Source: a virus (taxonomy: Duplodnaviria; Heunggongvirae; Uroviricota; Caudoviricetes). From it: DNA of 34,239 nucleotides. Under the pieces are notes generated by a model that was not told the origin of the DNA, made no database searches, and saw only the letters and a list, made by a program, of their open reading frames with translations. The position numbers and the translations under genes were made by a program. The stretch lies in the IMG/VR virus record IMGVR_UViG_2917881069_000005; one strand, given 5' to 3'. Shown here one piece after another: positions 1 through 34,239 of this stretch; positions within the stretch are counted from its first letter, which is position 1, and the number at the start of each line of letters is the position of its first letter.

Positions 1-474
1 ATGTACAGCCCGGTACAAATAGCCAATAAATTCATAACGTTGGGAAACCAACATCATAATCCTCTGACCCACATGCAACTGCAGAAGCTTACTTATATTG
101 CCCATGGTTACTATTTAGCATTAACAGGTAAGCCTTTGCTCAACGAATGTGTCTCTGCGTGGAAGTACGGTCCGGTTATTCCCGGAATGTACGATGCTTT
201 CAAAGATTATGGGAATAAGCCTGTTACGAATGTAGCAGTAGCTCCTTTTGGTGGCATTGTTACTATGGATCCGCAAGCAGAGAGCATTATAGGGGCTGTT
301 TATAAATTTTACGGCTCGAAAAATGGAATTGAGTTATCAACTCTAACTCATATGCCAGGTACGCCTTGGTCACAAACTTATAATGGTATTGGCTCGTCAA
401 TCATCCCAGATGATGCGATCAAGACTTATTATCATGATTTATTGAATAACCGACAGCAATGTCAGGGCCTCTGA
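1..474 (+). CDS. Panacea-domain (DUF4065, SocA/GepA-like) protein; putative antitoxin or abortive-infection component
   Basis: 157-aa ORF starting at window base 1; signatures recalled for Panacea/DUF4065 (LTHMQLQKLTYIAHGYYLA, AWKYGPVIP, LSTLTHMPGTPW); may be 5'-truncated by the window edge. Confidence 0.6.
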   Translation: MYSPVQIANKFITLGNQHHNPLTHMQLQKLTYIAHGYYLALTGKPLLNECVSAWKYGPVIPGMYDAFKDYGNKPVTNVAVAPFGGIVTMDPQAESIIGAVYKFYGSKNGIELSTLTHMPGTPWSQTYNGIGSSIIPDDAIKTYYHDLLNNRQQCQGL

Positions 475-496
475 AAAAGTAATATTCAGGGATGAC

Positions 497-1045
497 ATGT
501 CTCGCAATTCAGATATCTATAAACTTATCGGAGCGGCTGCAGGTGTTGAAAATGGTCGCTCTGAAGCATCCTTAAACTATACTGACAGTCAAGAACAGGT
601 TTTTAAATCTGCATTTGAGCCGTCTAATCATGAGAGCGATGATGATTCTTCTTCAGAAAATAAAGCTATTCTGGAGGAAGAAGAGTTTGGTTCTAATACA
701 GGTGCATTGCATGAGTTTATGCAGCAGCACAGAATGGACAGTCTTCAAGCTCAGCTTGATATGCTCAAATCACAAGTACGCGATAAGATAGCTGACGCAA
801 CTGGTAAAGAAATAGACAATGAACTTCGGACAAAAATGGCATCATTCACGGTTTGTTTTATGTCGTGGTGGTGCTTATTTGTAGCCGTAATGTTTGTATC
901 GTTTCTTATTGCTCATGAAGGAAAGCCTCCAGTTGAAGCAATCGTTGCATTACTAGGTACAAGTACAATTAGCATTGTTGGTTTGGTTGGTTTCGTTGTT
1001 AGTGGATTGTTCAAATCAAGAAAAGATGGCGATAAAGAAAAATAA
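497..1045 (+). CDS. small membrane protein: acidic Asp/Ser/Glu-rich and coiled-coil N-terminal part, two C-terminal hydrophobic helices; putative toxin/effector partner
   Basis: 182-aa ORF 22 bp downstream of the Panacea ORF on the same strand; hydrophobic segments FTVCFMSWWCLFVAVMFVSFLIA and AIVALLGTSTISIVGLVGFVVSGLF; no family recognised. Confidence 0.5.
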   Translation: MSRNSDIYKLIGAAAGVENGRSEASLNYTDSQEQVFKSAFEPSNHESDDDSSSENKAILEEEEFGSNTGALHEFMQQHRMDSLQAQLDMLKSQVRDKIADATGKEIDNELRTKMASFTVCFMSWWCLFVAVMFVSFLIAHEGKPPVEAIVALLGTSTISIVGLVGFVVSGLFKSRKDGDKEK

Positions 1046-13371: not shown

Positions 13372-13734
13372 GTGATATTCAAATGGTTCTTGGAACGTTG
13401 GGGGGCATGGGTGGCAAATAATCACGAGGATGTCACCTGGTCGTCTATTGCTGCAGGATTTAAAGGACTAATCCCTTCAAAAGTAAAATCCCGCCCGCAA
13501 TGTTGTGACGATGACGCGATGATCATTTGTGGGTGCATGGCTCGCCTGAAAAAGAACAACAGCGATTTGCACGATTTATTAGTGGATTATTATGTAGGTG
13601 GTATGACGTTTATGGCGCTTGCCCGTAAACATGGGCGTTCTGATTGCTGGGTTGGGCGTTTATTGCAAAAGGCTGAAGGTGTAGTTGATGGCATGTTAAT
13701 GATGTTAGAAATTGAGCTAGAGATGGATCGTTAG
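13372..13734 (+). CDS. late antiterminator Q (short QuuD-type); N-terminus frame-disrupted
   Basis: [27 protein letters not shown] is Q-family-like; long frame can only start at GTG 13372, while a well-placed ATG (13368, GGAG 8 nt upstream) is in another frame and stops after 17 codons. Confidence 0.6.
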
Positions 13735-16599: not shown

Positions 16600-17598
16600 A
16601 TGAGCGCAAAAATCAAATACGGCCTGTCAGCTGCTGTTCTGGCGCTGATTGCTGCAGGCGCGTCTGCTCCTCAAATACTTGACCAGTTTCTGGATGAAAA
16701 AGAGGGTAACCACACTACGGCATACCGCGATGGTTCCGGTATATGGACCATCTGTCGTGGTGCCACAATGGTGGATGGTAAGCCCGTCATACCGGGAATG
16801 AAGCTGTCGAAGGAAAAATGCGACCAGGTTAACGCTATTGAACGTGATAAGGCGCTGGCATGGGTGGAGCGCAATATTAAAGTACCACTGACCGAACCAC
16901 AGAAAGCGGGTATAGCGTCATTTTGTCCCTATAACATTGGCCCCGGTAAGTGTTTCCCGTCGACGTTTTATAAGCGGCTGAATGCCGGTGATCGTAAGAG
17001 TGCATGCGAGGCGATTCGCTGGTGGATAAAAGATGGTGGGCGCGATTGCCGCATACGTTCAAATAACTGCTATGGACAGGTTATTCGTCGTGACCAGGAA
17101 AGCGCATTAGCCTGTTGGGGGGATAGATCAGTGAGCAGAGTCGCCGCGATTATTTATGCTCTGGTTATCTGCATCATCGTCTGCCTGTCGTGGGCGGTCA
17201 ATCATTACCGTGATAACGCCATCGCCTACAAAGAACAGCGTGATAAAAAAGTCAGTGAGCTGAAGCAGGCGACCGCCACCATTACTGACATGCAGCAACG
17301 CCAGCGTGCTGCTGATGTACTCGATGCTAAATACACGAAGGAGTTGGCTGATGCGAAAGCTGAAAATGATGCTCTTCGGCGCAAGCTTGATAATGGTGGT
17401 CGGGTGCTCGTCAAAGGAAAATGCTCTGTGCCATCCTCAGCCGAAACCTCCAGCGCCTCCGGCATGGGCAATGATGCCACCGTCGAACTCTCTCCAGTTG
17501 CTGGACGAAACGTTCTCGGTATCCGGGACGGAATCATCAGAGACCAGACAGCACTGAGAACGCTTCAGGAATATATCAGGACGCAATGCCTTCGATGA
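16600..17598 (+). CDS. SAR endolysin (T4-lysozyme-type, P21 R-like) whose frame runs without a stop into Rz
   Basis: N-terminal signal-anchor ([18 protein letters not shown]) and lysozyme core ([22 protein letters not shown]); no stop before Rz; G6 run at about 17117-17122. Confidence 0.7.
17131..17598 (+). CDS. Rz: i-spanin Rz
   Basis: [34 protein letters not shown]... nearly identical to recalled lambda Rz; GTG start preceded by GGGGGGA. Confidence 0.75.
17351..17557 (+). CDS. Rz1: o-spanin Rz1 (embedded in Rz, +1 frame)
   Basis: [19 protein letters not shown] lipobox, Pro-rich [12 protein letters not shown]; inside ORF 17306..17557. Confidence 0.7.
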
Positions 17599-17770
17599 TA
17601 GCGATTAATTTTACTCATCATCCTTCACATCTGGCTCTGTAGACAGGGTGGTGATCACTTCTGGAGTGAATCCAGATTAAACATCTCATTGCTGATGCTT
17701 GAAGTTGAGCATCTGGCGCGCGGTAAGGGGCTGCGTTGAAATAAGAGCCAGTCATTACAAATACCAGGAT

Positions 17771-17800
17771 TTAGCCTCGTATTCGCGGGGCTTTTTATTG
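17771..17800 (+). terminator. terminator-like hairpin after the lysis cassette
   Basis: AGCCTCG...CGGGGCT imperfect stem followed by TTTTTATT. Confidence 0.3.
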
Positions 17801-18414
17801 CCATTACAAAAGCCACTCCCTACAGAGTGGCTTTGATAATGGCTTATACCCTACACGGGATAACTTAACTGATATCCCTTTTAACGGATAAAGGTATTCA
17901 AGCCTGACACATCATGCGCTGTATCGTCGCCGTATTCCCGTATTAACAGAGACCGTAGCCCGACGGGGAACTCCTTCTGCGAGAGTGTGCGGGAATAATC
18001 AAAAACGATGCACACCGGGTTTTTACCGCGTTTATGGTTCGCGGGTTTGTCCCTCATGCTCGCCAGTCCTGTGCGGGGGTGGAAGAAACAGGATACTCAC
18101 ACAGATTCTTGTGGGCACGATGCTATTCCTTTCTGGATTATCCCGATGCCATTCATGCAAGGCGCTGTATCAGACGTTCGTCATGGCTGTCAGGCTGACG
18201 GGTCCTCCCGGTGGGGTGGCCTGCCACGGGGCGGGAGCGTCGCGGAAAAAGGCTAGTTTTTGCATTTTTATCGGCCACCATCATCTTTGCATCTTATTGA
18301 TTATTAATGGTTATTTGTTTTTTGTATGTCGAATTGAGTGTTTTTTGTTCGACATCGAACGCGTTTTCTTAAAGTTGTTCGCACGATGCATGTTTAAAGC
18401 TCTCCGGAGGAAAT

Positions 18415-18906
18415 ATGGATCATGAGTTGAAAAACCTGGTGCTGAATATTAATCAACTGGCGGCTTTATCTGGTCTGCACCGCCAGACTGTCGTGGCAAG
18501 ACTGAAAAACATTCGTCCCGCTGGTGGACATGACAAACTCAAGCTATACCGGTTGACCGATATTCTGACTGAATTTATGGGGTTACCACCGCCGGTTGCT
18601 GAGGGCGAAATGGATCCACATGAACGCAAAGCCTGGTATCAGTCTGAACGTGAGCGTCTTAAGTTCGAACAGGAAACGGCACAACTCATTCCGGCCAGTG
18701 ATGTCAGACGGGAGTTTGCCATCTGGGCAAAAGCGGTCGTGCAGGTGCTGGAGACATTACCGGATATTCTGGAACGTGACTGCGGCCTGCAGCCTGCCGC
18801 TGTGAGCCGTGTTCAGTCCATTATTGATGATCTGCGCGATCAGATAGCCCTGCGGGTGACCGAAGCAGGTGCGGATGATGAGGAGGAATTACAGCAGGAG
18901 GAGTAA
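18415..18906 (+). CDS. terminase small subunit (Nu1-like, N-terminal HTH)
   Basis: 163 aa; HTH-like LNINQLAALSGLHRQTVVARLKN; immediately upstream of and overlapping (TAATG) the large terminase. Confidence 0.6.
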   Translation: MDHELKNLVLNINQLAALSGLHRQTVVARLKNIRPAGGHDKLKLYRLTDILTEFMGLPPPVAEGEMDPHERKAWYQSERERLKFEQETAQLIPASDVRREFAIWAKAVVQVLETLPDILERDCGLQPAAVSRVQSIIDDLRDQIALRVTEAGADDEEELQQEE

Positions 18907-21009
18907 TGCTGAATCAGGAAACCGCAAAGGCAGCACGAACCGATTCAGGTTATATCCTTCGCGCACCGAGACGAATGCTGGTTGCTGATGCCGTTGCTCA
19001 GTATATGCGGGTGCCCATGGGGGCCGGGAACTCAGTCCCGTGGGATCCGCTGGTGGCACCGTATGTTATTGAGCCGATGAACTGCCTGGCCTCGCGTGAA
19101 TACGACGCAGTGATATTTGTTGGCCCGGCACGAACTGGCAAGACTATCGGCCTGATTGACGGCTGGGTGATTTACAACGTGATTTGCGATCCTGCGGATA
19201 TGTTGATCATTCAGATGACGGAGGAAAAAGCCCGCGAACACTCCAAAAAAACGACTTGCCAGAACGTTTCGCGTCAGCCCGGAAGTGGTCAGTCGCCTGA
19301 GTCCGAACAAAAATGACAACAACGTTTATGACAGAACATTCCTTGCTGGCAACTACCTGAAAATCGGCTGGCCGTCAGTCAATATCATGTCCTCATCAGA
19401 TTATAAATGCGTGGCGCTGACGGATTATGACCGTTTTCCGGAAGATATTGATGGCGAGGGGGATGCCTTCTCTCTTGCCTCAAAACGTACCACCACATTT
19501 ATGTCCAGTGGTATGACGCTGGTGGAGAGTTCCCCCGGCAGGGATGTGAAGGATGTGAAATGGCGACGGACTTCACCGCATGAGGCTCCACCAACCACGG
19601 GGATACTGTCGCTCTATAACCGTGGCGATCGCCGTCGCTGGTACTGGCCCTGTCCACACTGTGGTGAGTATTTTCAGCCCTGCGGCGATGTGGTTGCTGG
19701 TTTCCGTGATATTGCCGATCCCGTGCTGGCAAGTGAGGCGGCTTATATTCAGTGTCCTTCCTGTTCAGGACGGATTATGCCTGAACAAAAACGTGAGCTG
19801 AACGGACGTGGGGTCTGGTTGCGGGATGGTGAATCCATCAATGCGGATGGCAGTCGTTATGGTGATCCCCGACGCTCACGTATTGCGTCATTCTGGATGG
19901 AGGGTCCGGCAGCTGCTTACCAGACACTCTCGCAACTCGTTTACAAACTGCTTACTGCAGAACAGGAATACGAGACAACCGGAAGTGAAGAAACACTCAA
20001 GACGGTTATCAATACCGACTGGGGATTACCTTATCTTCCCCGTGCCAGCATGGAGCAACGAAAAAGTGAACTGCTTGAACAGCGGGCAGAGCCAGTTCCT
20101 TCCCGCAGTGTGCCGGATGGCGTTAATTTCCTGGTGGCGACAGTTGATGTGCAGGCGGGACGTCATCGCCGTTTTGTGGTTCAGGTAACGGGCTATGGCA
20201 GCCGTGGCGAACGCTGGATTATTGATCGTTACAACATCACGCAGTCATTGCGCGGTGACAGCGACGGGGAGAGCCAGCGAATTGATCCGGCCAGCTATCC
20301 GGAAGACTGGGATGTCCTGCTGACGGATGTTTTTCATAAAAGCTGGCCGCTGGCCTCCGATCCTTCTCAACAAATGCGACTGATGGCAATGGCGGTGGAC
20401 TCCGGCGGTGAAGACGGGGTCACTGATAATGCCTATAAATTCTGGCGTCGTTGCCGTCGTGATGGCCTTGGTAAACGTATTTACCTGTTTAAGGGCGACA
20501 GCATCCGGCGCGCAAAACTGATCACCCGTACATTCCCTGATAACACCGGACGAACGGGCCGACGGGCGCAGGCCGCAGGTGATGTGCCGCTCTGGCTTCT
20601 TCAGACGGATGCCCTGAAAGACCGGGTGAATAACGCGTTATGGCGTGACTCTCCAGGTCCCGGCTATGTGCATTTCCCTGACTGGCTGGGGAGCTGGTTT
20701 TACGACGAACTGACGTATGAAGAGCGGAGTAGTGACGGGAAATGGAGTAAGCCGGGTCGCGGTGCCAACGAAGCTTTTGACCTGATGGTGTATGCCGAGG
20801 CTCTGGTCATTCTGCATGGATACGAAAAGATCCGCTGGCCGGATGCACCGGAGTGGGCGAGCCGGGAAACCTGGCTGGAGTGTGTCCCGGACAGTACCGA
20901 ACCGTCACCCTCACCGGAACCGGTATCCACGCCTGTTAAAAAACAAAAACGGAAGAAAACAGTAACTGACGATGTTAACCCCTGGCTGACTTCCGGAGGA
21001 TGGTTATGA
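18906..21009 (+). pseudogene. A: terminase large subunit (lambda gpA family) split into two frames at an A7 run
   Basis: ORFs 18906..19316 (Walker-A-like VGPARTGKT) and 19285..21009 (WYWPCPHCGEYF, gpA-like); deleting one A in AAAAAAA at about 19245-19251 joins them into one frame reading ...HSKKRLARTFRVSPEVVSRL... Confidence 0.6.
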
Positions 21010-21218
21010 ACCAGAATGATATCGAAGCCATGATTCAGCGTTATACGGAAGCTGAAATGGCGGTGCTGGACGGAAAATCCGTCACCTTTAATGGTCAGCA
21101 GATGACCATGGAAAACTTATCTGAGATCCGGCAGGGACGGCAGGAGTGGGAGCGCCGCCTTGCGGCTCTGATTACACGACGACGGGGGCATCCCGGGTAC
21201 CGGCTGGCGAGGTTCTGA
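21006..21218 (+). CDS. W: head-tail joining protein W-like
   Basis: About 70 aa; ...GRQEWERRLAALITRRRG resembles gpW; GGAGGA upstream; ORF track 21000..21218. Confidence 0.6.
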   Translation: MNQNDIEAMIQRYTEAEMAVLDGKSVTFNGQQMTMENLSEIRQGRQEWERRLAALITRRRGHPGYRLARF

Positions 21219-22726
21219 TGGCAATTCTTGATGATGTGATTGGCGTTTTTTCACCAGGATGGAAAGCGGCAAGGCTGCGTTCCCGTGCGGTGATCCAGGC
21301 TTATGAGGCCGTAAAAACGACGCGGACACATAAAGCCCGGCGGGAAAACCGAACTGCCGACCAGTTAAGCCAGTACGGGGCCGTGTCGTTACGTGAGCAG
21401 GCCCGTTACCTTGATAACAACCACGATCTGGTCATTGGTGTATTTGACAAGCTGGAAGAACGGGTGGTGGGGAAAAACGGGATTATTGTCGAGCCACATC
21501 CGGTATTACGCAATGGGGCCATTGCCCGTGATCTGGCAGCGGAGATACGCACCCGATGGAGTGAATGGTCTGTCAGTCCGGAAGTCACCGGGCAGTTTAC
21601 CCGTCCGATGCTGGAACGTCTGATGCTGCGTACCTGGCTGCGCGATGGTGAGGTGTTTGCCCAGATGGTTTCCGGGCGCATAAACAGCCTGACGCCTTCT
21701 GCCGGTGTTCATTTCTGGCTGGAGGCGCTCGAGCCGGACTTTATTCCCATGACCAGTGATGAGAGCAACAGGCTGAATCAGGGCGTGTTTGTTGATGACT
21801 GGGGGCGTCCCGAAAAATATCTGGTGTATAAAAGCCGTCCCGTATCCGGGCGGCAGATGGAAACCAAAGAAGTGGATGCAGAGCGAATGCTGCATCTTAA
21901 ATTTGTTCGCCGTCTGCACCAGATGCGCGGGACGTCTTTGTTGTCCGGTGTGCTGATCCGCCTCAGTGCCCTGAAAGAGTATGAAGATTCTGAGCTGACT
22001 GCAGCAAGGATCGCCGCTGCTCTGGGGATGTACATCCGCAAAGGCGACGGACAGAGCTATGAAACGGATGGTAATGACAGCAAGGAGAATGAACGCGAGC
22101 TTACCATTCAGCCAGGCATTATTTACGACGATCTGAAACCCGGCGAAGAAATCGGAATGGTGAAGTCGGATCGCCCCAATCCTAATCTTGAAACTTTTCG
22201 TAATGGTCAGTTGCGTGCCGTGGCGGCGGGTAGTCGTCTGAGTTTTTCCAGTACAGCGCGCAACTATAACGGCACTTACAGCGCCCAGCGTCAGGAGCTG
22301 GTTGAATCCACTGATGGCTACCTGATCCTGCAGGACTGGTTTATTGGTGCCGTCACCCGCCCGATGTATCGTGCCTGGCTGAAACAGGCTGTGGCATCCG
22401 GTGTTATCAGGCTACCCCGCGATCTTGATCGTTCTTCACTGTATACCGCGGTGTATTCCGGACCGGTGATGCCGTGGATTGACCCTGTTAAGGAGGCTGA
22501 GGCCTGGAAAATTCAGATTCGTGGTGGAGCGGCGACAGAATCAGACTGGGTACGTGCAGGTGGTCGTAATCCGGATGATGTTAAACGTCGGCGCAAGGCA
22601 GAAATTGATGAAAACCGCAAGCTGGATCTGGTATTTGATACCGATCCTGCCAGTGATAAAGGAGGCAGCAGTGCCGCAACGAAACGACAGGAGCCGCAGC
22701 ACACCGACGACCAGTCCGAAGAATAA
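21218..22726 (+). CDS. B: portal protein (lambda gpB family)
   Basis: 502 aa from MAILDD (TGATG overlap with W stop); portal-size, position and sequence character; ORF track 21146..22726. Confidence 0.75.
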   Translation: MAILDDVIGVFSPGWKAARLRSRAVIQAYEAVKTTRTHKARRENRTADQLSQYGAVSLREQARYLDNNHDLVIGVFDKLEERVVGKNGIIVEPHPVLRNGAIARDLAAEIRTRWSEWSVSPEVTGQFTRPMLERLMLRTWLRDGEVFAQMVSGRINSLTPSAGVHFWLEALEPDFIPMTSDESNRLNQGVFVDDWGRPEKYLVYKSRPVSGRQMETKEVDAERMLHLKFVRRLHQMRGTSLLSGVLIRLSALKEYEDSELTAARIAAALGMYIRKGDGQSYETDGNDSKENERELTIQPGIIYDDLKPGEEIGMVKSDRPNPNLETFRNGQLRAVAAGSRLSFSSTARNYNGTYSAQRQELVESTDGYLILQDWFIGAVTRPMYRAWLKQAVASGVIRLPRDLDRSSLYTAVYSGPVMPWIDPVKEAEAWKIQIRGGAATESDWVRAGGRNPDDVKRRRKAEIDENRKLDLVFDTDPASDKGGSSAATKRQEPQHTDDQSEE

Positions 22727-22739
22727 TTCCTGGTTCAGG

Positions 22740-23714
22740 ATGCAGGCTGGTCACCAGAGTGACGCGGATATTTATATTTATGACGAGATTGGTTTCTGGG
22801 GTGTTACAGCGAAGCAGTTTATCAGTGATCTGAATGCACTGGGCGATATCACCCACATTAATCTCCATATCAATTCACCGGGTGGCGATGTCTTTGAAGG
22901 CATCGCCATTTTTAATGCGCTGAAAACACATGGTGCGTCCATTACCGTTTATGTCGACGGTGTGGCGGCGTCAATGGCGTCGGTCATTGCGATGGTGGGA
23001 AACCCGGTCATTATGCCGGAAAACACCTTCATGATGATTCATAAACCATTTGGCTTTACGGGCGGTGATGCGGAGGACATGCGCACCTATGCTGACCTGC
23101 TCGATAAGGTTGAGGCGGTTCTGTTACCCGCTTATGCACAGAAAACCGGGAAAACCACCGATGAAATTGCTGCCATGCTGGCGGATGAGACCTGGATGTC
23201 CGGTGCCGAATGTCTGGCACATGGATTTGCTGATCAGGTGACGCCAGCCGTTAAGGCAATGGCATGTATTCAGTCAAAACGTACAGAGGAATTTAAAAAG
23301 ATGCCGGAATCCATTCGAAACATGATTACTCCGCCACGCAACAGTGCTCCACGCGTACAGGATGATGAACCAGCAGCCTCCCGGACGCCAGTGCAGGCAG
23401 CAGCACCCGTGGTGGATGAAAACAGTATCCGTGCGCAGGTACTGGCAGAGCAAAAAGCGCGTGTAAACGGTATTAATGATCTGTTTGCCATGTTTGGCGG
23501 GCGTTATCAGACGCTGCAGGCTCAGTGTCTTGCCGATCCTGAATGTTCGCTGGAGCAGGCCCGCGAAAAGCTGTTGAACGAGATGGGGCGCGAGTCCACG
23601 CCATCCAATAAAAATACCCCGGCTCATATTTATGCCGGTAACGGTAATTTTGTGGGGGACGGGATCCGCCAGGCGCTGATGGCGCGTGCCGGATTTGAAA
23701 AAACCGAAACGTGA
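22740..23714 (+). CDS. ClpP-like prohead protease with C-terminal scaffold-like extension
   Basis: ClpP-type signatures (HINSPGGDV, AASMASVIAM, MIHKP); start at internal MQAGHQ of ORF 22479..23714. Confidence 0.7.
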   Translation: MQAGHQSDADIYIYDEIGFWGVTAKQFISDLNALGDITHINLHINSPGGDVFEGIAIFNALKTHGASITVYVDGVAASMASVIAMVGNPVIMPENTFMMIHKPFGFTGGDAEDMRTYADLLDKVEAVLLPAYAQKTGKTTDEIAAMLADETWMSGAECLAHGFADQVTPAVKAMACIQSKRTEEFKKMPESIRNMITPPRNSAPRVQDDEPAASRTPVQAAAPVVDENSIRAQVLAEQKARVNGINDLFAMFGGRYQTLQAQCLADPECSLEQAREKLLNEMGRESTPSNKNTPAHIYAGNGNFVGDGIRQALMARAGFEKTET

Positions 23715-23730
23715 TAATGTCTACAACGGG

Positions 23731-24699
23731 ATGACCCTGCGTGAATATGCCCGTATGTCACTGACTGAACGGGGTATTGGGGTTTCCAGTTATAACCCGA
23801 TGCAGATGGTCGGTGCGGCGTTCACACACAGTACGTCTGACTTCGGTAATATTCTGCTGGATGTTGCGAACAAAGCCATTCTGCAGGGCTGGGAAGATGC
23901 TCCTGAAACCTATGAACAGTGGACGCGGAAAGGTCAGTTGTCTGATTTTAAAATTGCCCATCGTGTGGGTATGGGGGGCTTCAGTGCTCTGCGTCAGGTG
24001 CGTGAAGGGGCGGAATATAAATACGTCACCACCGGAGATAAACAGGCCACTATTGCACTGGCGACCTATGGCGAGCTGTTCAGTATCACCCGTCAGGCCA
24101 TTATCAATGATGATCTGAATATGCTGACCGATGTCCCGATGAAACTGGGCCGTGCGGCGAAATCCACTATTGCCGATCTGGTTTATGCCATTCTGACGTC
24201 TAACCCGAAAATCTCCACAGATAATGTAAGTCTGTTCGATAAAGCGAAACATGCAAACGTACTGGAGAGCGCTGCAATGGACGTGGCATCGCTGGATAAA
24301 GCCCGCCAGTTGATGCGCGTTCAGAAAGAGGGGGAGCGTCATCTGAATATTCGTCCTGCGTTCGTACTGGTACCGACGGCGATGGAGTCTGTTGCTAACC
24401 AGGTCATTCGCTCCTCAAGTGTCAAGGGGGCTGACATTAACGCCGGTATTATTAACCCGGTGAAAGATTTTGCGACCGTTATTGCAGAGCCTCGTCTTGA
24501 TGATAACAGCCAGACCACCTTCTACCTGGCTGCGTCAAAAGGCTCCGATACAATTGAAGTGGCTTATCTCAACGGTGTGGATACGCCATATATTGATCAG
24601 ATGGAGGGCTTCAGTGTGGATGGCGTGACAACGAAAGTGCGTATTGACGCCGGTGTCGCGCCAGTTGATCACCGCGGTCTGGTGAAATGTACGGCGTAA
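23731..24699 (+). CDS. major capsid protein (HK97-fold; not lambda gpE-like)
   Basis: Follows protease; about 320 aa; start ambiguous (GTG 23686 or ATG 23731). Confidence 0.65.
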   Translation: MTLREYARMSLTERGIGVSSYNPMQMVGAAFTHSTSDFGNILLDVANKAILQGWEDAPETYEQWTRKGQLSDFKIAHRVGMGGFSALRQVREGAEYKYVTTGDKQATIALATYGELFSITRQAIINDDLNMLTDVPMKLGRAAKSTIADLVYAILTSNPKISTDNVSLFDKAKHANVLESAAMDVASLDKARQLMRVQKEGERHLNIRPAFVLVPTAMESVANQVIRSSSVKGADINAGIINPVKDFATVIAEPRLDDNSQTTFYLAASKGSDTIEVAYLNGVDTPYIDQMEGFSVDGVTTKVRIDAGVAPVDHRGLVKCTA

Positions 24700-24721
24700 A
24701 CGTCGCAGACAACAACTCTGA

Positions 24722-24742
24722 TGGCCCGTAAGGGCTTTTTTT
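24722..24742 (+). terminator. hairpin plus T7 after major capsid gene
   Basis: GCCC-gtaa-GGGC followed by TTTTTTT; a second hairpin CAGCCCC-tgaac-GGGGCTG lies at about 24753-24771. Confidence 0.4.
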
Positions 24743-24785
24743 GTACCTGAAATCAGCCCCTGAACGGGGCTGTGCGGAGACAGTT

Positions 24786-25108
24786 ATGGCAAAGAATTTT
24801 GTAGAAGAAGGAAAAACGGTGGCGATTGTTGCCAGTGCAGCCATCAGCAGCGGAGATCTGGTGCAGGTGGGTGATGTTTTGCGGTGGCGCTGACCGATAT
24901 TCCACAGGGTGAAACAGGCGACGGCATGACCGAAGGTGTGTTTATGCTGCCTAAGCTGAAAACGGATGACATGAAAACGGGTAAGAAGGTTTATCTGAAG
25001 TCCGGAAAAGTTCAGCTGACTAACAGCGGCTCTGATCCGCTGGTCGGGGTTGTCTGGGCAGATGCCGGAACCAGTGCAGAAGAAGTGCCGGTAAAACTCA
25101 ATGTCTGA
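24786..25108 (+). pseudogene. small head protein (DUF2190-like), frame-disrupted
   Basis: ATG 24786 with GGAGA RBS opens a 35-codon frame (MAKNFVEEGKTVAIVASAAISSGDLVQVGDVLRWR*) abutting out-of-frame ORF 24884..25108; one added G near 24882 would give a continuous about 107-aa product. Confidence 0.45.
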
Positions 25109-25376
25109 TCCCTTTTCCCGGCTGGCAGCGCGTATGGATGCGATCACGGTCAGAAAGATGGGAAAGACAGCCTCGATTAATGATGTCGATATGACTGTGA
25201 TCCCGGGAGAAACACTGGCAGAGCTGAATGCTCTGTCCGGACCTGCGGTCTCTCTGGTGGTGTTTTCTTCGGGATACCGCCCACGGCGCGGGGATTGCGT
25301 TGTTTATGACGGACAACAATGGACGGTCACACGGCATGAACGCTTTAACGGTAAGCCAATGATCTTTATTGAGTAA
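25101..25376 (+). CDS. head-tail joining protein, FII-like
   Basis: 91 aa; position and RRGD-containing pattern resemble lambda FII; ATG overlaps upstream stop. Confidence 0.45.
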   Translation: MSDPFSRLAARMDAITVRKMGKTASINDVDMTVIPGETLAELNALSGPAVSLVVFSSGYRPRRGDCVVYDGQQWTVTRHERFNGKPMIFIE

Positions 25377-25387
25377 AGAGGTATGGG

Positions 25388-25978
25388 ATGAAGGGGCTTG
25401 AGAATGCCATCCGCAATCTGAACAGCCTTGATACCCGTATGGTGCCACAGGCCAGCGCATGGGCGATAAACCGTGTGGCACAGAAAGCGGTCTCGGTTGC
25501 CACCCGGCAGGTTGCCGGGAATACCGTTGCGGGAGATAACCAGGTGAAAGGGATCCCCCTGAAACTGGTACGTCAGCGTGTCCGGGTGTTTAAAGCCAGT
25601 CCGTCAGGAAAAATGACGGCCAGGATCCGCGTTAACCGGGGCAATCTGCCCGCCATCAAACTGAACACAACACGGCGGCGTGCTGGTGAAGGACTGAGAG
25701 TGGGAAAATACTTTTTCCGGGGGGCATTTGTTCAGCAACTGGCGAATGGCCGCTGGCATGTTCTGAGGCGTCTTCCTGAAGCGCGTTTTGCAACAGGGCA
25801 TGACCATCAGGGCAGGCCAAGAAAAAATCGTCTTCCTGTGGAGGTAGTGAAAATCCCGCTGTCCGGACCGCTGACACAGGCATTTGAAGATGCCCGCGAC
25901 CGCATCATTGCTGCGGAAATGCCGAAACAGCTGGGGTATGCACTGAAACAACAACTGAGGTTATGGCTGACCCGATGA
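25388..25978 (+). CDS. Z: tail completion protein Z
   Basis: 196 aa; gpZ-family sequence character and position before U. Confidence 0.7.
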   Translation: MKGLENAIRNLNSLDTRMVPQASAWAINRVAQKAVSVATRQVAGNTVAGDNQVKGIPLKLVRQRVRVFKASPSGKMTARIRVNRGNLPAIKLNTTRRRAGEGLRVGKYFFRGAFVQQLANGRWHVLRRLPEARFATGHDHQGRPRKNRLPVEVVKIPLSGPLTQAFEDARDRIIAAEMPKQLGYALKQQLRLWLTR

Positions 25979-27130: not shown

Positions 27131-27190
27131 CAGGACGATACTCATCATTTGCCCCGGTTATCCGGGGCTTTTTTGCAGGTGGAGAACATG

Positions 27191-27577
27191 ATGTTTCTGA
27201 AACAGGGCACGTTTAATTATGAAAAACAGTCCGTGGTGCTCAGTGAGCTGTCCGGGCTGCAGAGAATTGAATATCTGGCGTTTGTTCAGCAGCGAACGGC
27301 AAAGTTTGATGCCGGTGAGGGAGAACTGCCGGAGGCTGAACGACAGATTGCTTTTCTGCGGATGGGGATGGATATCAATGCCTGGCTGGTTTCCCGCTCA
27401 CTGTGGAATGCGGATCAGTCTAAGGATGTAGAGACGCTTTGCGCATCCGTTATTACAACATGGTCGTATGATGCCCTGGGTGCGGGGGCGGAGATGGTTC
27501 TGTCGCTGAGCGGTATGGGGGCCATTGATAATGCCGGGGATGATGAGCATGAGGCGCTGACGCCGGAAAAGTCCTGA
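27191..27577 (+). CDS. G: tail assembly chaperone G
   Basis: MFLK...LSELSGLQRIEYLA resembles lambda gpG; GGTGGAG RBS. Confidence 0.8.
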   Translation: MFLKQGTFNYEKQSVVLSELSGLQRIEYLAFVQQRTAKFDAGEGELPEAERQIAFLRMGMDINAWLVSRSLWNADQSKDVETLCASVITTWSYDALGAGAEMVLSLSGMGAIDNAGDDEHEALTPEKS

Positions 27578-27915
27578 CGCGGGAAATGCAGTTTGTCATG
27601 CGGCTTGCCCGGGAGTTCCGGCGGGCAGACTGGCGGCGGATGCTGTCGGAAATGTCGGCCACTGAGCTTGGTGAGTGGGGCGATTATTTCCGGATGCAGA
27701 GCTTCAGTGATGTGTGGATGGATGCGCAGTTTGCCTCGCTGAAGGCATTGATCGTGAGAATGGTGTCCGGCAGCAGTGATGCTGCGGTGGCTGATTTCAG
27801 CCTTTTACCGGAAGAGAACGGGATACCGGAGCGAACGGACGAAGAACTGATGCATCTTGGGGAAGGTATTTCCGGAGGTGTGCGTTATGGACCAGATAGC
27901 CAACCTGGTCATTGA
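27191..27915 (+). CDS. T: G-T fusion product via -1 programmed frameshift near the end of G
   Basis: T frame (ORF 27586..27915) is -1 relative to G and open from about 27553; overlap contains CCGGAAAAGTCC just before the G stop. Confidence 0.6.
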
Positions 27916-31281: not shown

Positions 31282-31980
31282 ATGCAGGATATTCCACAGG
31301 AAACACATCATGAGACGACACGCCTCACTCAGTCAGCCCAGGTGGTGCTCTGGGAAATCGATCTGACAGAGGTCGGTGGTGAACGTTATTTTTTCTGTAA
31401 TGAGCAGAACGAAAAAGGTGAGCCGGTTACCTGGCAGGGGCGGCAGTATCAGGCATACCCCATTCAGGGGACGGGATTTGAACTGAACGGCAAGGGCAGT
31501 GCTGCCCGTCCGACACTGACGGTTTCTAACCTGCACGGAATGGTCACCGGGATGGCGGAAGACCTGCAGAGTCTGGTCGGCGGAACGGTGGTCAGGCGTA
31601 AGGTTTACGCCCGTTTTCTGGATGCGGTGAACTTCGTCAACGGAAACAGTGACGCCGATCCGGAGCAGGAGGTGATCAGCCGCTGGCGCATCGAGCAGTG
31701 CAGCGAACTGAGCGCGGTCAGTGCCTCTTTTGTACTGTCCACGCCGACGGAAACGGACGGTGCTGTTTTTCCGGGGCGCATCATGCTGGCTAATACCTGC
31801 ACCTGGACCTATCGCGGTGATGAGTGCGGTTATCACGGTCCGGCTGTCGCTGATGAATATGACCAGCCGACGTCCGATATCACGAAGGATAAATGCAGCA
31901 AATGCCTGAGTGGTTGTAAGTTTCGCAATAACGTCGGCAACTTTGGCGGCTTCCTTTCCATTAACAAACTTTCGCAGTAA
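31282..31980 (+). CDS. L: minor tail protein L
   Basis: 232 aa, near-identical to recalled lambda gpL including C-terminal Cys cluster. Confidence 0.85.
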   Translation: MQDIPQETHHETTRLTQSAQVVLWEIDLTEVGGERYFFCNEQNEKGEPVTWQGRQYQAYPIQGTGFELNGKGSAARPTLTVSNLHGMVTGMAEDLQSLVGGTVVRRKVYARFLDAVNFVNGNSDADPEQEVISRWRIEQCSELSAVSASFVLSTPTETDGAVFPGRIMLANTCTWTYRGDECGYHGPAVADEYDQPTSDITKDKCSKCLSGCKFRNNVGNFGGFLSINKLSQ

Positions 31981-33333: not shown

Positions 33334-34239
33334 ATGGGTAAAGGCAGCAGTAAGGGGCATACCCCGCGCGAAGCGAAGGATAACCTGAAATCCACGCAGT
33401 TACTGAGTGTGATCGATGCCATCAGCGAAGGGCCGATTGAAGGTCCGGTGGATGGATTAAAAAGCGTGCTGCTGAACAGTACACCGGTGCTGGACAGTGA
33501 GGGGAATACCAACATCTCCGGTGTCACGGTGGTGTTCCGGGCAGGTGAGCAGGAGCAGACACCGCCGGAGGGTTTTGAATCCTCCGGTTCCGAGACGGTG
33601 CTGGGTACGGAAGTGAAATACGACACGCCGATCACCCGGACCATCACGTCTGCAAACATCGACCGTCTGCGCTTTACCTTCGGTGTGCAGGCACTGGTGG
33701 AAACCACCTCAAAGGGTGACCGGAATCCGTCGGAAGTCCGCCTGCTGGTTCAGATACAACGTAACGGTGGCTGGGTGACAGAAAAAGACATCACCATTAA
33801 GGGCAAAACCACGTCGCAGTATCTGGCCTCGGTGGTGGTGGATAACCTGCCGCCGCGACCGTTCAATATCCGGATGCGCAGGATGACACCGGACAGCACA
33901 ACAGACCAGCTGCAGAACAAAACGCTCTGGTCGTCATACACCGAAATCATCGATGTGAAACAGTGCTACCCGAACACGGCACTGGTCGGCGTGCAGGTGG
34001 ATTCGGAGCAGTTCGGCAGCCAGCAGGTGAGCCGTAATTATCATCTTCGCGGGCGCATTCTGCAGGTGCCGTCGAACTATAACCCGCAGACGCGGCAATA
34101 CAGCGGTATCTGGGACGGGACGTTTAAACCGGCATACAGCAACAACATGGCCTGGTGTCTGTGGGATATGCTGACCCATCCGCGCTACGGCATGGGGAAG
34201 CGTCTCGGTGCGGCGGATGTGGACAATGGGCGCTGTATG
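33334..34239 (+). CDS. J: tail tip / host specificity protein J (5' part; continues beyond window)
   Basis: Hand-translated open frame to window end: MGKGSSKGHTPREAKDNLKSTQLLSVIDAISEGPIEGPVDGLK... near-identical to recalled lambda gpJ N-terminus; absent from ORF track because no stop in window. Confidence 0.85.
   Translation, partial: MGKGSSKGHTPREAKDNLKSTQLLSVIDAISEGPIEGPVDGLKSVLLNSTPVLDSEGNTNISGVTVVFRAGEQEQTPPEGFESSGSETVLGTEVKYDTPITRTITSANIDRLRFTFGVQALVETTSKGDRNPSEVRLLVQIQRNGGWVTEKDITIKGKTTSQYLASVVVDNLPPRPFNIRMRRMTPDSTTDQLQNKTLWSSYTEIIDVKQCYPNTALVGVQVDSEQFGSQQVSRNYHLRGRILQVPSNYNPQTRQYSGIWDGTFKPAYSNNMAWCLWDMLTHPRYGMGKRLGAADVDNGRCM

What the first reader, a model, noticed from the sequence alone, without database searches (positions are those of the whole stretch)
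24786..25108. Small head gene split by a single-nucleotide frame break
A strong start (GGAGA then ATG 24786) opens only 35 codons before a TGA, and the adjacent ORF 24884..25108 has no credible start of its own. One added G near 24882 (TTTTG-CGG to TTTTGGCGG) would join them into an about 107-aa protein reading ...VGDVLAVALTDIPQG..., which resembles small DUF2190-type head proteins.
Basis: partly seen in the sequence, partly recalled or inferred. Interest (0 to 1): 0.45.

Follow-up and report, generated by a model that had tools for sequence, protein, structure and literature searches.

The report
Frameshifted phage capsid cement gene
A small, well-known phage head "cement" (decoration) gene in an E. 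coli lambdoid prophage is split in two because one T is missing from a run of five; this is an ordinary sequence error or recent inactivating mutation, not a new genetic mechanism.

Summary
ATG 24786 opens 35 codons and stops at TGA 24891-24893. The next ORF (GTG 24884..25108, 74 aa) continues the same gene in the -1 frame.

The lesion is not a missing G. One T is lost from a T5 run (GATGTTTTTGCG to GATGTTTTGCG, window 24877-24880). Restoring it gives a 107-aa protein, ...VGDVFAVALT..., identical to WP_001097050.1 of E. coli UTI89. That protein matches Pfam PF09956 Phage_cement_2 (formerly DUF2190; E 9e-21) and PHROG 122 "head decoration". It is 61% identical to Gifsy-2 STM1034 and sits in the same place, just after the fused protease-scaffold-capsid gene.

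All 1971 copies in 5426 complete E. coli genomes and all 16 close phage relatives carry T5. Programmed frameshifting is rejected: no slippery heptamer, no stabilising RNA structure, and the T run is not conserved.

The window has six more private single-base indels that break Q, the lysozyme end, a small ORF, the large terminase, the capsid fusion gene and J. The encoded proteins are otherwise 92-100% identical to those of sequenced phage PhiR40_1. I judge uncorrected homopolymer errors most likely (about 0.6) and real recent decay second (about 0.35). The same T4 allele recurs rarely in other public assemblies, some of them otherwise clean. Low interest.

The parts
24786..25108 (+). Whole capsid cement / head decoration gene (Phage_cement_2, ex-DUF2190), frame-broken. 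It is 324 nt / 107 aa once the missing T is restored.
   Evidence: The repaired product is identical to P0016 / WP_001097050.1.
24776..24780 (+). Shine-Dalgarno GGAGA, 5 nt upstream of ATG 24786.
   Evidence: Read directly from the sequence. Identical in Ayreon, UTI89 and mEp460.
24786..24893 (+). N-terminal fragment ORF of 35 codons. Residues 1-31 are authentic; LRWR* is out of frame.
   Evidence: The exact product P0001 is seen on 32 public contigs.
24877..24880 (+). T4 tract, the site of the lesion. All close relatives have T5 here (codons Val31-Phe32).
   Evidence: None of 1821 E. coli records (1971 places) carries T4. All 16 close phage records span 502 nt against the 501-nt query.
24884..25108 (+). 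C-terminal fragment ORF (74 aa, nominal GTG start = internal Val34 codon). It matches Pfam model positions 32-103 of 103.
   Evidence: 48.6 bits on its own. The exact product P0017 is seen on 51 public contigs.
24723..24746 (+). Intrinsic terminator-like hairpin plus T run, between the capsid fusion gene (stop codon 24697-24699) and the cement gene.
   Evidence: Annotated as a rho-independent terminator at the same place in mEp460 and Ayreon.
25101..25376 (+). Downstream FII-like head-tail joining gene (PF13856 'Gifsy-2' family, PHROG 153), intact. Its ATG overlaps the end of the cement gene by 8 nt.
22671..24699 (+). Upstream fused ClpP-protease / scaffold / major capsid gene, itself frame-broken by an extra A at 23707-23709 (AAA against AA).
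19245..19251 (+). Companion frame break: A7 where relatives have A6, splitting the large terminase gene (18906..21006) near residue 114.
13392..13393 (+). Companion frame break: GG where relatives have G, in the antiterminator Q gene near codon 8.
17117..17122 (+). Companion frame break: G6 where relatives have G5, altering the last 3 codons of the lysozyme (R) gene.
17605..17606 (+). Companion frame break: TT where relatives have T, in the small ORF that overlaps the end of Rz.
34224..34225 (+). Companion frame break: AA where relatives have AAA, in tail-tip gene J (codon ~298), 14 nt before the window ends.

Best explanation
The locus is the ordinary capsid cement (decoration) gene of a Gifsy-2 / mEp460 / cdtI-type lambdoid prophage head module. 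In intact form it encodes a 107-aa protein. By homology with Gifsy-2, this protein is expected to bind the outside of the expanded capsid at the threefold positions as trimers and stabilise it (inferred, not shown here).

In this window one T of a T5 run is missing. Translation from ATG 24786 therefore terminates after 35 codons, and the remaining 74 codons lie in the -1 frame. Nothing in the sequence restores the frame, so this is not recoding.

The most likely cause in this particular record is an uncorrected homopolymer-length error of sequencing or assembly. It would be one of seven single-base errors in coding sequence in the late region, and the biological gene would be intact.
For: Identity of the gene:
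- PF09956 E 9e-21 and PHROG 122 E 1.8e-47.
- 100% identity to P0016 after repair.
- 61% identity over the full length to Gifsy-2 STM1034, in the same gene position.
- Gifsy-2 is reported to carry a trimeric cement protein at each threefold axis (PMC8538268, citing Effantin et al. 2010). Gifsy-2-type heads have a fused protease-coat gene (PMC12315714), as seen here.
- A low-confidence model's best Foldseek matches are almost all small capsid auxiliary proteins.

Nature of the lesion:
- T5 to T4.
- The T4 state is absent from 1971 copies in complete E. coli genomes and from 16 close phage records.

Error reading:
- Six further window-private +/-1 indels break Q, the R end, a small ORF, TerL, the protease-capsid fusion and J.
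- The encoded protein pieces remain 92-100% identical to those of the sequenced phage PhiR40_1, with no extra frame breaks and no IS or larger deletions.
- The window's private substitutions in 21699-25663 are mostly synonymous (6 of 9). This indicates the genes were under selection until very recently.
- The very same T4 state appears en masse in obviously noisy long-read assemblies, with 15-36 extra gene pieces over 14 genes and five contigs in one sample. It is therefore a known error mode at this site.
Against: The reads behind the window cannot be inspected, and its source record was not found.

The T4 allele also occurs in at least three otherwise clean contigs, where it is the only break among 14 structural genes (L014/L022, L020, L024). 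It also occurs in an NCTC genome (L018) whose prophage has a real IS insertion. It can therefore be a genuine mutation.

The window has real private substitutions that remain unmatched among about 2000 E. coli copies. The ratio of private substitutions to private indels (about 9:2 in 4 kb) is not far from what neutral decay could give.

Four of the seven coding events are in runs of 1-3 bases, which fits neither explanation especially well.
Confidence: 0.6

Rival explanations
1. The T4 state is a genuine mutation. Under this reading the prophage is a recently inactivated (cryptic) element, and the cement gene is a true pseudogene created by replication slippage in the T5 run, alongside real frameshifts in Q, TerL, the capsid fusion gene and J.
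For: The same T4 allele exists on several diverged haplotypes (16-79 substitutions apart over 2.6 kb; GGT GAT and GGC GAT backgrounds). These include contigs in which every other structural gene is intact.

T4 is at least 30 times more frequent than any other predicted +/-1 homopolymer frameshift product of this gene: 32 contigs against 0-1.

The window lineage carries private substitutions, so it is a distinct natural lineage. One of the eight indels (31979, AA against AAA in the L-K spacer) is a natural polymorphism shared with the clean contig L014.
Against: Seven independent frameshifts occur without a single nonsense codon, IS element or larger deletion. Protein pieces remain 92-100% identical to PhiR40_1.

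Private substitutions are 6 synonymous to 3 non-synonymous, which is not the pattern of relaxed selection.

Six of the seven coding breaks are seen in no other fetched locus. The window-specific capsid-fusion products are not on record anywhere.
Confidence: 0.35
2. The split is functional. Either a programmed -1 ribosomal frameshift at GUU UUG yields a full-length ...VGDVLAVALT... protein, or termination-reinitiation at GTG 24884 (SD-like GGTGAT 8 nt upstream; ORF1 stop 5 nt downstream) makes a working 74-aa cement protein.
For: ORF2 is in the -1 frame relative to ORF1, and the two overlap by 10 nt. A GTG with an SD-like element is present. The arrangement recurs in public data.
Against: There is no X XXY YYZ heptamer in the zero frame (GAU GUU UUG), so P-site re-pairing would fail.

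The downstream RNA folds no better than shuffled sequence (z +0.89).

The T run is not conserved: Gifsy-2 reads GAT ATG TTC GCT.

More than 99% of homologues are single 107-aa ORFs.

The 32 N-terminal residues that a reinitiated product would lack are among the most conserved of the family (14 invariant columns). In the model they contribute three of nine beta-strands.
Confidence: 0.03

Closest known systems
DUF2190 family protein WP_001097050.1 (E. coli UTI89 prophage) = 'head decoration' gp06 of phage mEp460 / cdtI gp06 / Ayreon SJJBTUD_0006
   Same: DNA identity is 99.2-99.8% over 501 nt. The RBS, the upstream terminator and the neighbours are the same (protease-capsid fusion upstream, FII-like gene downstream). 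The protein is identical to the UTI89 copy after repair.
   Different: The window lacks one T of the T5 run, so the gene is split into 35 + 74 codons. All these relatives have a single 107-codon ORF.
Gifsy-2 STM1034 and the trimeric capsid cement protein of Gifsy-2 (Effantin et al. 2010, as cited in PMC8538268 and PMC12315714)
   Same: Identity is 61% over the full 107 aa, with the same position directly after the tripartite protease-scaffold-capsid gene. The expected role is the same: a trimeric plug at the capsid threefold axes.
   Different: That STM1034 is the protein seen at the threefold axes rests on my recollection of the 2010 paper, which could not be read here. Gifsy-2 has no T run at the equivalent codons.
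Pfam PF09956 Phage_cement_2, and distantly PF22758 Phage_cement (E217 gp24 / Pam3 gp6)
   Same: There is a full-length match to PF09956 (positions 1-103 of 103; 74.6 bits) and a sub-threshold match to PF22758 (24.4 bits against a cut-off of 27). Foldseek lists Pam3, TW1, T1, Sf11, phiCD508 and HFTV1 capsid auxiliary chains among the top hits.
   Different: No PDB relative is detectable by sequence. The structural matches are weak (E 6e-3 to 1, TM 0.5-0.65) and come from a model with pLDDT 62.
Lambda gpD (head decoration protein)
   Same: It has an analogous role and gene position in a lambdoid head module: a small protein added to the expanded capsid at threefold sites (established knowledge; PMC8538268).
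   Different: It belongs to a different Pfam family, and no sequence match to it appeared in any search here. Homology was not tested.
Programmed -1 frameshifting of phage tail chaperone genes (lambda G/GT)
   Same: Two overlapping ORFs, with the second in the -1 frame.
   Different: There is no slippery heptamer, no stimulatory structure and no conservation of the two-ORF layout. This is a resemblance in layout only.

Membership tests
Pfam PF09956 Phage_cement_2 (ex-DUF2190) capsid cement proteins | HMM score above the curated gathering threshold over the whole model | tested here: met
   The repaired protein scores 74.6 bits (cut-off 24), covering model positions 1-103 of 103. The C-terminal fragment alone scores 48.6 bits over model positions 32-103. 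The 35-aa fragment alone gives no hit.
Pfam PF09956 Phage_cement_2 (ex-DUF2190) capsid cement proteins | Encoded as one ORF of about 100-110 codons | tested here: not met
   In the window the gene is split 35 + 74 codons. All 19 aligned homologues at 58-98% identity are single ORFs of 106-121 aa. The gene is therefore a disrupted copy of a family member as it stands in this sequence.
Pfam PF09956 Phage_cement_2 (ex-DUF2190) capsid cement proteins | Gene located in the head module immediately after the major capsid gene | tested here: met
   The gene lies 86 nt downstream of the protease-scaffold-capsid fusion gene and overlaps the FII-like gene. The order is the same in UTI89, mEp460, Ayreon, PhiR40_1 and Gifsy-2.
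Pfam PF09956 Phage_cement_2 (ex-DUF2190) capsid cement proteins | Fold of a small beta-rich capsid auxiliary protein | tested here: inconclusive
   The AlphaFold2 model has mean pLDDT 62.3 and is mostly beta. Foldseek top hits are capsid auxiliary chains, but with E 6e-3 or weaker.
Pfam PF09956 Phage_cement_2 (ex-DUF2190) capsid cement proteins | Protein physically bound to the mature capsid (trimers at threefold axes) | not testable with these tools
   This needs virion proteomics or cryo-EM. It is known only by analogy with Gifsy-2 (PMC8538268).
Programmed -1 ribosomal frameshift site | Slippery heptamer X XXY YYZ in the zero frame at the ORF overlap | tested here: not met
   The zero-frame codons are GAU GUU UUG CGG. 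Val-tRNA on GUU would have to re-pair with UGU.
Programmed -1 ribosomal frameshift site | Stable downstream stimulatory RNA structure | tested here: not met
   Region 24870-24960 folds at -22.7 kcal/mol against a shuffled mean of -25.4; z +0.89.
Programmed -1 ribosomal frameshift site | Two-ORF layout and slip site conserved among homologues | tested here: not met
   None of 1971 E. coli copies and none of 16 close phages have it. The intact product is on at least 1000 contigs, against 32 for the 35-aa product. Gifsy-2 lacks the T run.
True pseudogene in a decaying prophage | Signs of relaxed selection besides the frame breaks (nonsense codons, IS elements, deletions, excess non-synonymous change) | tested here: not met
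   No extra breaks or truncations appear in 30+ genes beyond the single-base indels. Private substitutions are 6 synonymous to 3 non-synonymous. The numbers are small, so this weakens but does not exclude the pseudogene reading.
True pseudogene in a decaying prophage | Frame break confirmed in the underlying reads or by independent resequencing | not testable with these tools
   The source record and its reads are not available.

The most novel reading that the evidence does not exclude
The T5 tract of this cement gene may be a genuine recurrent mutational hot spot. Under this reading, T5 to T4 arises independently on several prophage haplotypes and persists in otherwise intact prophages, because the cement protein is dispensable under many conditions (as lambda gpD is for shortened genomes). 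That would make a naturally segregating 'decoration-minus' allele. Less likely, the 74-aa product made by reinitiation retains function.
Probability: 0.08. Interest if true: 0.3.

Novelty: already known. Interest (0 to 1): 0.08.

Why it matters
It matters little for biology. The gene, its family and its genomic context are all known, and the repaired product is identical to a protein seen on more than a thousand contigs.

The practical value is for annotation:
- The two ORFs should be merged and flagged as one frameshifted cement gene.
- The window should be treated as carrying seven single-base frame breaks in coding sequence, so any 'split gene' seen in it deserves suspicion.
- Public databases already hold the two fragments as separate 'hypothetical protein' and 'DUF2190 domain-containing protein' entries.

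If the break were real, the prophage would in any case be non-viable for other reasons (terminase and capsid genes broken). The cement lesion alone therefore decides nothing.

Tried and rejected
1. Rejected: alignment shows a missing T in the T5 run.

2. Programmed -1 frameshift. Rejected: no heptamer, no RNA structure, no conservation.

3. Finding the window's own source:
- An exact 44-nt T4 pattern gave no hit in viral contigs or genome contigs.
- Exact look-ups of the three window-specific capsid-fusion fragments found nothing on record.
So the sequencing platform could not be established.

4. Sequence search of the PDB with the protein and with a 19-sequence profile. Only chance-level hits appeared (LptE, E 0.1-0.3).

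5. Structure prediction gave only pLDDT 62. The fold search is therefore supportive at best.

6. Reading Effantin et al. 2010 directly. The paper is not held, so only secondary citations were used.

7. A literature search on 'cement protein' returned barnacle papers.

8. Treating all eight indels against L004/L005 as private. Rejected for 31979, which is an intergenic polymorphism shared with the clean contig L014.

9. Using the substitution-to-indel ratio alone to separate error from decay. This was inconclusive, because the private substitutions stay private even against about 2000 E. coli copies.

10. A GGGAAAG slip site for the G/T tail chaperone. It is not present near 27500-27600 and was not pursued.

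Full report
**1. The observation**

GGAGA lies at 24776-24780, followed after 5 nt by ATG 24786. The ORF has 35 codons (MAKNFVEEGKTVAIVASAAISSGDLVQVGDVLRWR) and ends at TGA 24891-24893. A second ORF runs from GTG 24884 to TGA 25106-25108 (74 aa), in the -1 frame, overlapping the first by 10 nt.

The surrounding window is the late region of a lambdoid prophage. In order it encodes small and large terminase, portal, a fused ClpP-protease/scaffold/major-capsid gene, this small gene, an FII-like gene, Z, U, V, G, T, the tape measure, M, L, K, I and J.

**2. What the break is**

A 501-nt query around the locus finds 16 phage records at 98.8-99.8% identity (Ayreon, mEp460, cdtI, PhiR40_1 and others) and 1829 E. 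coli records. Every close match spans 502 nt in the subject.

Alignment shows the single difference. The relatives read GATGTTTTTGCG; the window reads GATGTTTTGCG. One T of a T5 run is missing, leaving TTTT at 24877-24880.

The authentic junction is D30-V31-F32-A33-V34. Restoring the T gives a 107-aa protein identical to P0016 / WP_001097050.1 of E. coli UTI89. GTG 24884 is simply the Val34 codon of the intact gene.

**3. What the gene is**

- The repaired protein matches Pfam PF09956 Phage_cement_2 (the former DUF2190) over the whole model (E 9e-21, 74.6 bits, cut-off 24). It matches PHROG 122 'head decoration' at E 1.8e-47.
- It is 61% identical over its full length to Gifsy-2 STM1034, which occupies the same slot after the tripartite capsid gene.
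[quoted passage not shown] 2010). It also states that Gifsy-2-type heads have fused protease and coat genes (PMC12315714).
- That STM1034 is that protein is my recollection of the 2010 paper, which I could not read.
- No PDB relative is detectable by sequence.
- An AlphaFold2 model from 19 homologues is of low confidence (pLDDT 62.3). Its best Foldseek matches are weak (E 6e-3 to 1, TM 0.5-0.65). They are almost all small auxiliary capsid proteins of phiCD508, Sf11, HFTV1, phi29, TW1, T1, FCWL1 and Pam3. I treat this as supportive only.

**4. Is the two-ORF layout designed?**

No, for these reasons:
- A 61-nt query centred on the T4 tract finds 1971 places in 1821 complete-genome E. coli records. 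None is an exact match; all differ by the one-base gap.
- Homologues down to 58% identity are all single ORFs. The 32 N-terminal residues are among the best conserved, with 14 invariant columns.
- Reading ORF2 from ORF1 would need a -1 shift at GAU GUU UUG. This is not an X XXY YYZ heptamer.
- The downstream RNA is no more stable than shuffled sequence (z +0.89).
- Gifsy-2 has GAT ATG TTC GCT at the equivalent codons, so the T run is not conserved.
- Reinitiation at GTG 24884 is conceivable, since an SD-like GGTGAT lies 8 nt upstream. The product would, however, lack three of the nine predicted beta-strands.

**5. The break is not alone**

I compared the window with its two best full-length relatives: an E. 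coli chromosomal prophage at dusA (L004) and phage PhiR40_1 (L005). The comparison shows eight single-base length differences on which both relatives agree against the window.

| Position | Window vs relatives | Gene affected |
|---|---|---|
| 13392 | GG vs G | antiterminator Q, near codon 8 |
| 17117 | G6 vs G5 | last 3 codons of lysozyme R |
| 17605 | TT vs T | small ORF after Rz |
| 19245 | A7 vs A6 | large terminase, near residue 114 |
| 23707 | AAA vs AA | protease-scaffold-capsid fusion, near residue 320 |
| 24877 | T4 vs T5 | cement gene |
| 31979 | AA vs AAA | L-K intergenic spacer |
| 34225 | AA vs AAA | J, near codon 298 |

tblastn with the PhiR40_1 proteins confirms the frame switches. 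The broken-gene pieces are 92-100% identical to PhiR40_1, and every intact late-region gene is at least 96% identical. There are no other truncations.

Searches of complete E. coli genomes show that the best matches lack the three insertions in 16600-21100, and both changes in 22700-25650.

Of the eight, 31979 is a natural polymorphism shared with a clean contig. The other six companions occur in no fetched locus.

**6. The T4 allele elsewhere**

Exact-product look-ups changed the picture somewhat. The 35-aa and 74-aa products are on record on 32 and 51 contigs. The intact protein is on at least 1000 contigs (the counter's cap) for each of two alleles. All fetched carriers do have T4.

I counted tblastn pieces for 14 structural genes:
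- Most carriers are plainly noisy long-read assemblies, with 15-36 extra pieces. Five contigs come from one metagenome sample.
- L014/L022 (Logan ERR14106470), L020 (ERZ28660638) and L024 (Logan ERR3317654) have the cement break as their only break.
- L018 (an NCTC genome) has the cement break plus a real IS insertion in the tape-measure gene.

The carriers lie on diverged haplotypes, 16-79 substitutions apart over 2.6 kb. The window is closest to the T5-carrying UTI89 copy (4 substitutions). T4 has therefore arisen, or been mis-called, many times independently.

Other predicted +/-1 homopolymer frameshift products of the same gene are on 0-1 contigs each. That control is imperfect, because the longer products depend on the downstream allele.

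In short, T5 to T4 is both a recurrent basecalling error and, apparently, a rare real allele.

**7. Error or real in this window?**

In favour of error:
- There are seven single-base breaks in coding sequence within 21 kb, and no nonsense codon, IS element or larger deletion.
- Protein pieces are otherwise 92-100% identical to a sequenced phage.
- Private substitutions are mostly synonymous (6 of 9; neutral expectation is about a quarter). This implies the genes were under selection until essentially the present.

In favour of a real mutation:
- T4 exists in clean assemblies.
- The window lineage has private substitutions that stay unmatched among about 2000 E. coli copies. The private substitution-to-indel ratio (about 9:2 in 4 kb) is therefore not extreme.

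The source record and its reads could not be found.

My probabilities are: sequence error about 0.6, genuine recent decay about 0.35, any functional recoding or reinitiation about 0.03.

**8. Comparison with what is known, and verdict**

The gene is a known member of Phage_cement_2 in a known head module. The phenomenon is a homopolymer frameshift.

- the missing base is a T, not a G;
- the junction residue is Phe, not Leu;
- the break is one of seven single-base breaks in coding sequence in the window.

Novelty: already known. Interest: low. The only mildly interesting residue is that the same T4 allele recurs in otherwise intact prophages. This could reflect a tolerated decoration-minus allele (probability about 0.08).

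Noticed in passing
window 22671-24699 (break at 23707-23709): The fused ClpP-protease / scaffold / major capsid gene is a single 675-aa ORF in UTI89 and other relatives. Here it is split into two frames by an extra A (AAA against AA). The two pieces are 99.7% and 98.8% identical to the PhiR40_1 protein.
   Followed up: yes
window 18906-21006 (break at 19245-19251): The large terminase gene is split near residue 114 by A7 where relatives have A6. None of the best E. coli matches has the extra A.
   Followed up: yes
window 13392-13393; 17117-17122; 17605-17606; 34224-34225: Four further window-private single-base indels break the antiterminator Q gene (codon ~8), the last 3 codons of the lysozyme gene, a 50-aa ORF overlapping the end of Rz, and tail-tip gene J (codon ~298, 14 nt before the window ends).
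   Followed up: yes
window 31979-31980: AA where L004 and L005 have AAA, in the 5-nt spacer between the stop of gene L and the ATG of gene K. Unlike the other indels, this state is shared with the clean contig L014/L022, so it is a harmless natural polymorphism.
   Followed up: partly
window 24723-24772: Between the capsid gene stop and the cement gene RBS there is a terminator-like hairpin with a T run (24723-24746), annotated as a rho-independent terminator in mEp460 and Ayreon. A second GC-rich hairpin, CAGCCCC-TGAAC-GGGGCTG (24754-24772), follows without a T tail. A terminator in the middle of a late operon is unusual. It may lower expression of the cement and tail genes relative to the capsid gene.
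   Followed up: no
window 1-1045: The window starts inside a gene for a Panacea-domain protein (ORF 1..474; the L004 homologue is annotated as such). A 182-aa ORF (497..1045) with a hydrophobic C-terminal part follows. This looks like a PanA-type antitoxin/toxin moron at the left end of the prophage. PhiR40_1 carries YafM/YafO at the same place instead.
   Followed up: no
public records for this gene family (P0001, P0017, P0002, P0010-P0012, P0030; L002 3403-3678): There are annotation problems in public databases. The two halves of the T4 allele are deposited as separate proteins (for example NYY75546.1 / NYY75545.1, STH74311.1). Fragments of this cement protein are named 'recombinase RecA' or 'predicted RecA/RadA family phage recombinase'. 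The FII-like neighbour is named 'DNA breaking-rejoining protein' by PGAP.
   Followed up: no
L006, L010, L011, L013, L015 (all ENA ERZ1714329); L007, L025 (ERZ1714338): One metagenome assembly holds at least five different contigs of this prophage family, all with the T4 state and all with 16-33 extra gene fragments over 14 genes. This shows T5 to T4 is a systematic consensus error in that data type.
   Followed up: partly
L018 15205-16361 (GCA_900449095.1, NCTC strain): A T4-carrying relative also has an IS element (rve-type transposase genes) inserted in the tape-measure gene. This is a genuinely degraded prophage copy.
   Followed up: no
window 27149-27915: The G and T tail-chaperone ORFs are present. 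The lambda-type GGGAAAG slip site is not found near their junction (nearest matches are at 25160 and 32073), so the G-T frameshift site of this phage group must differ from lambda's.
   Followed up: no
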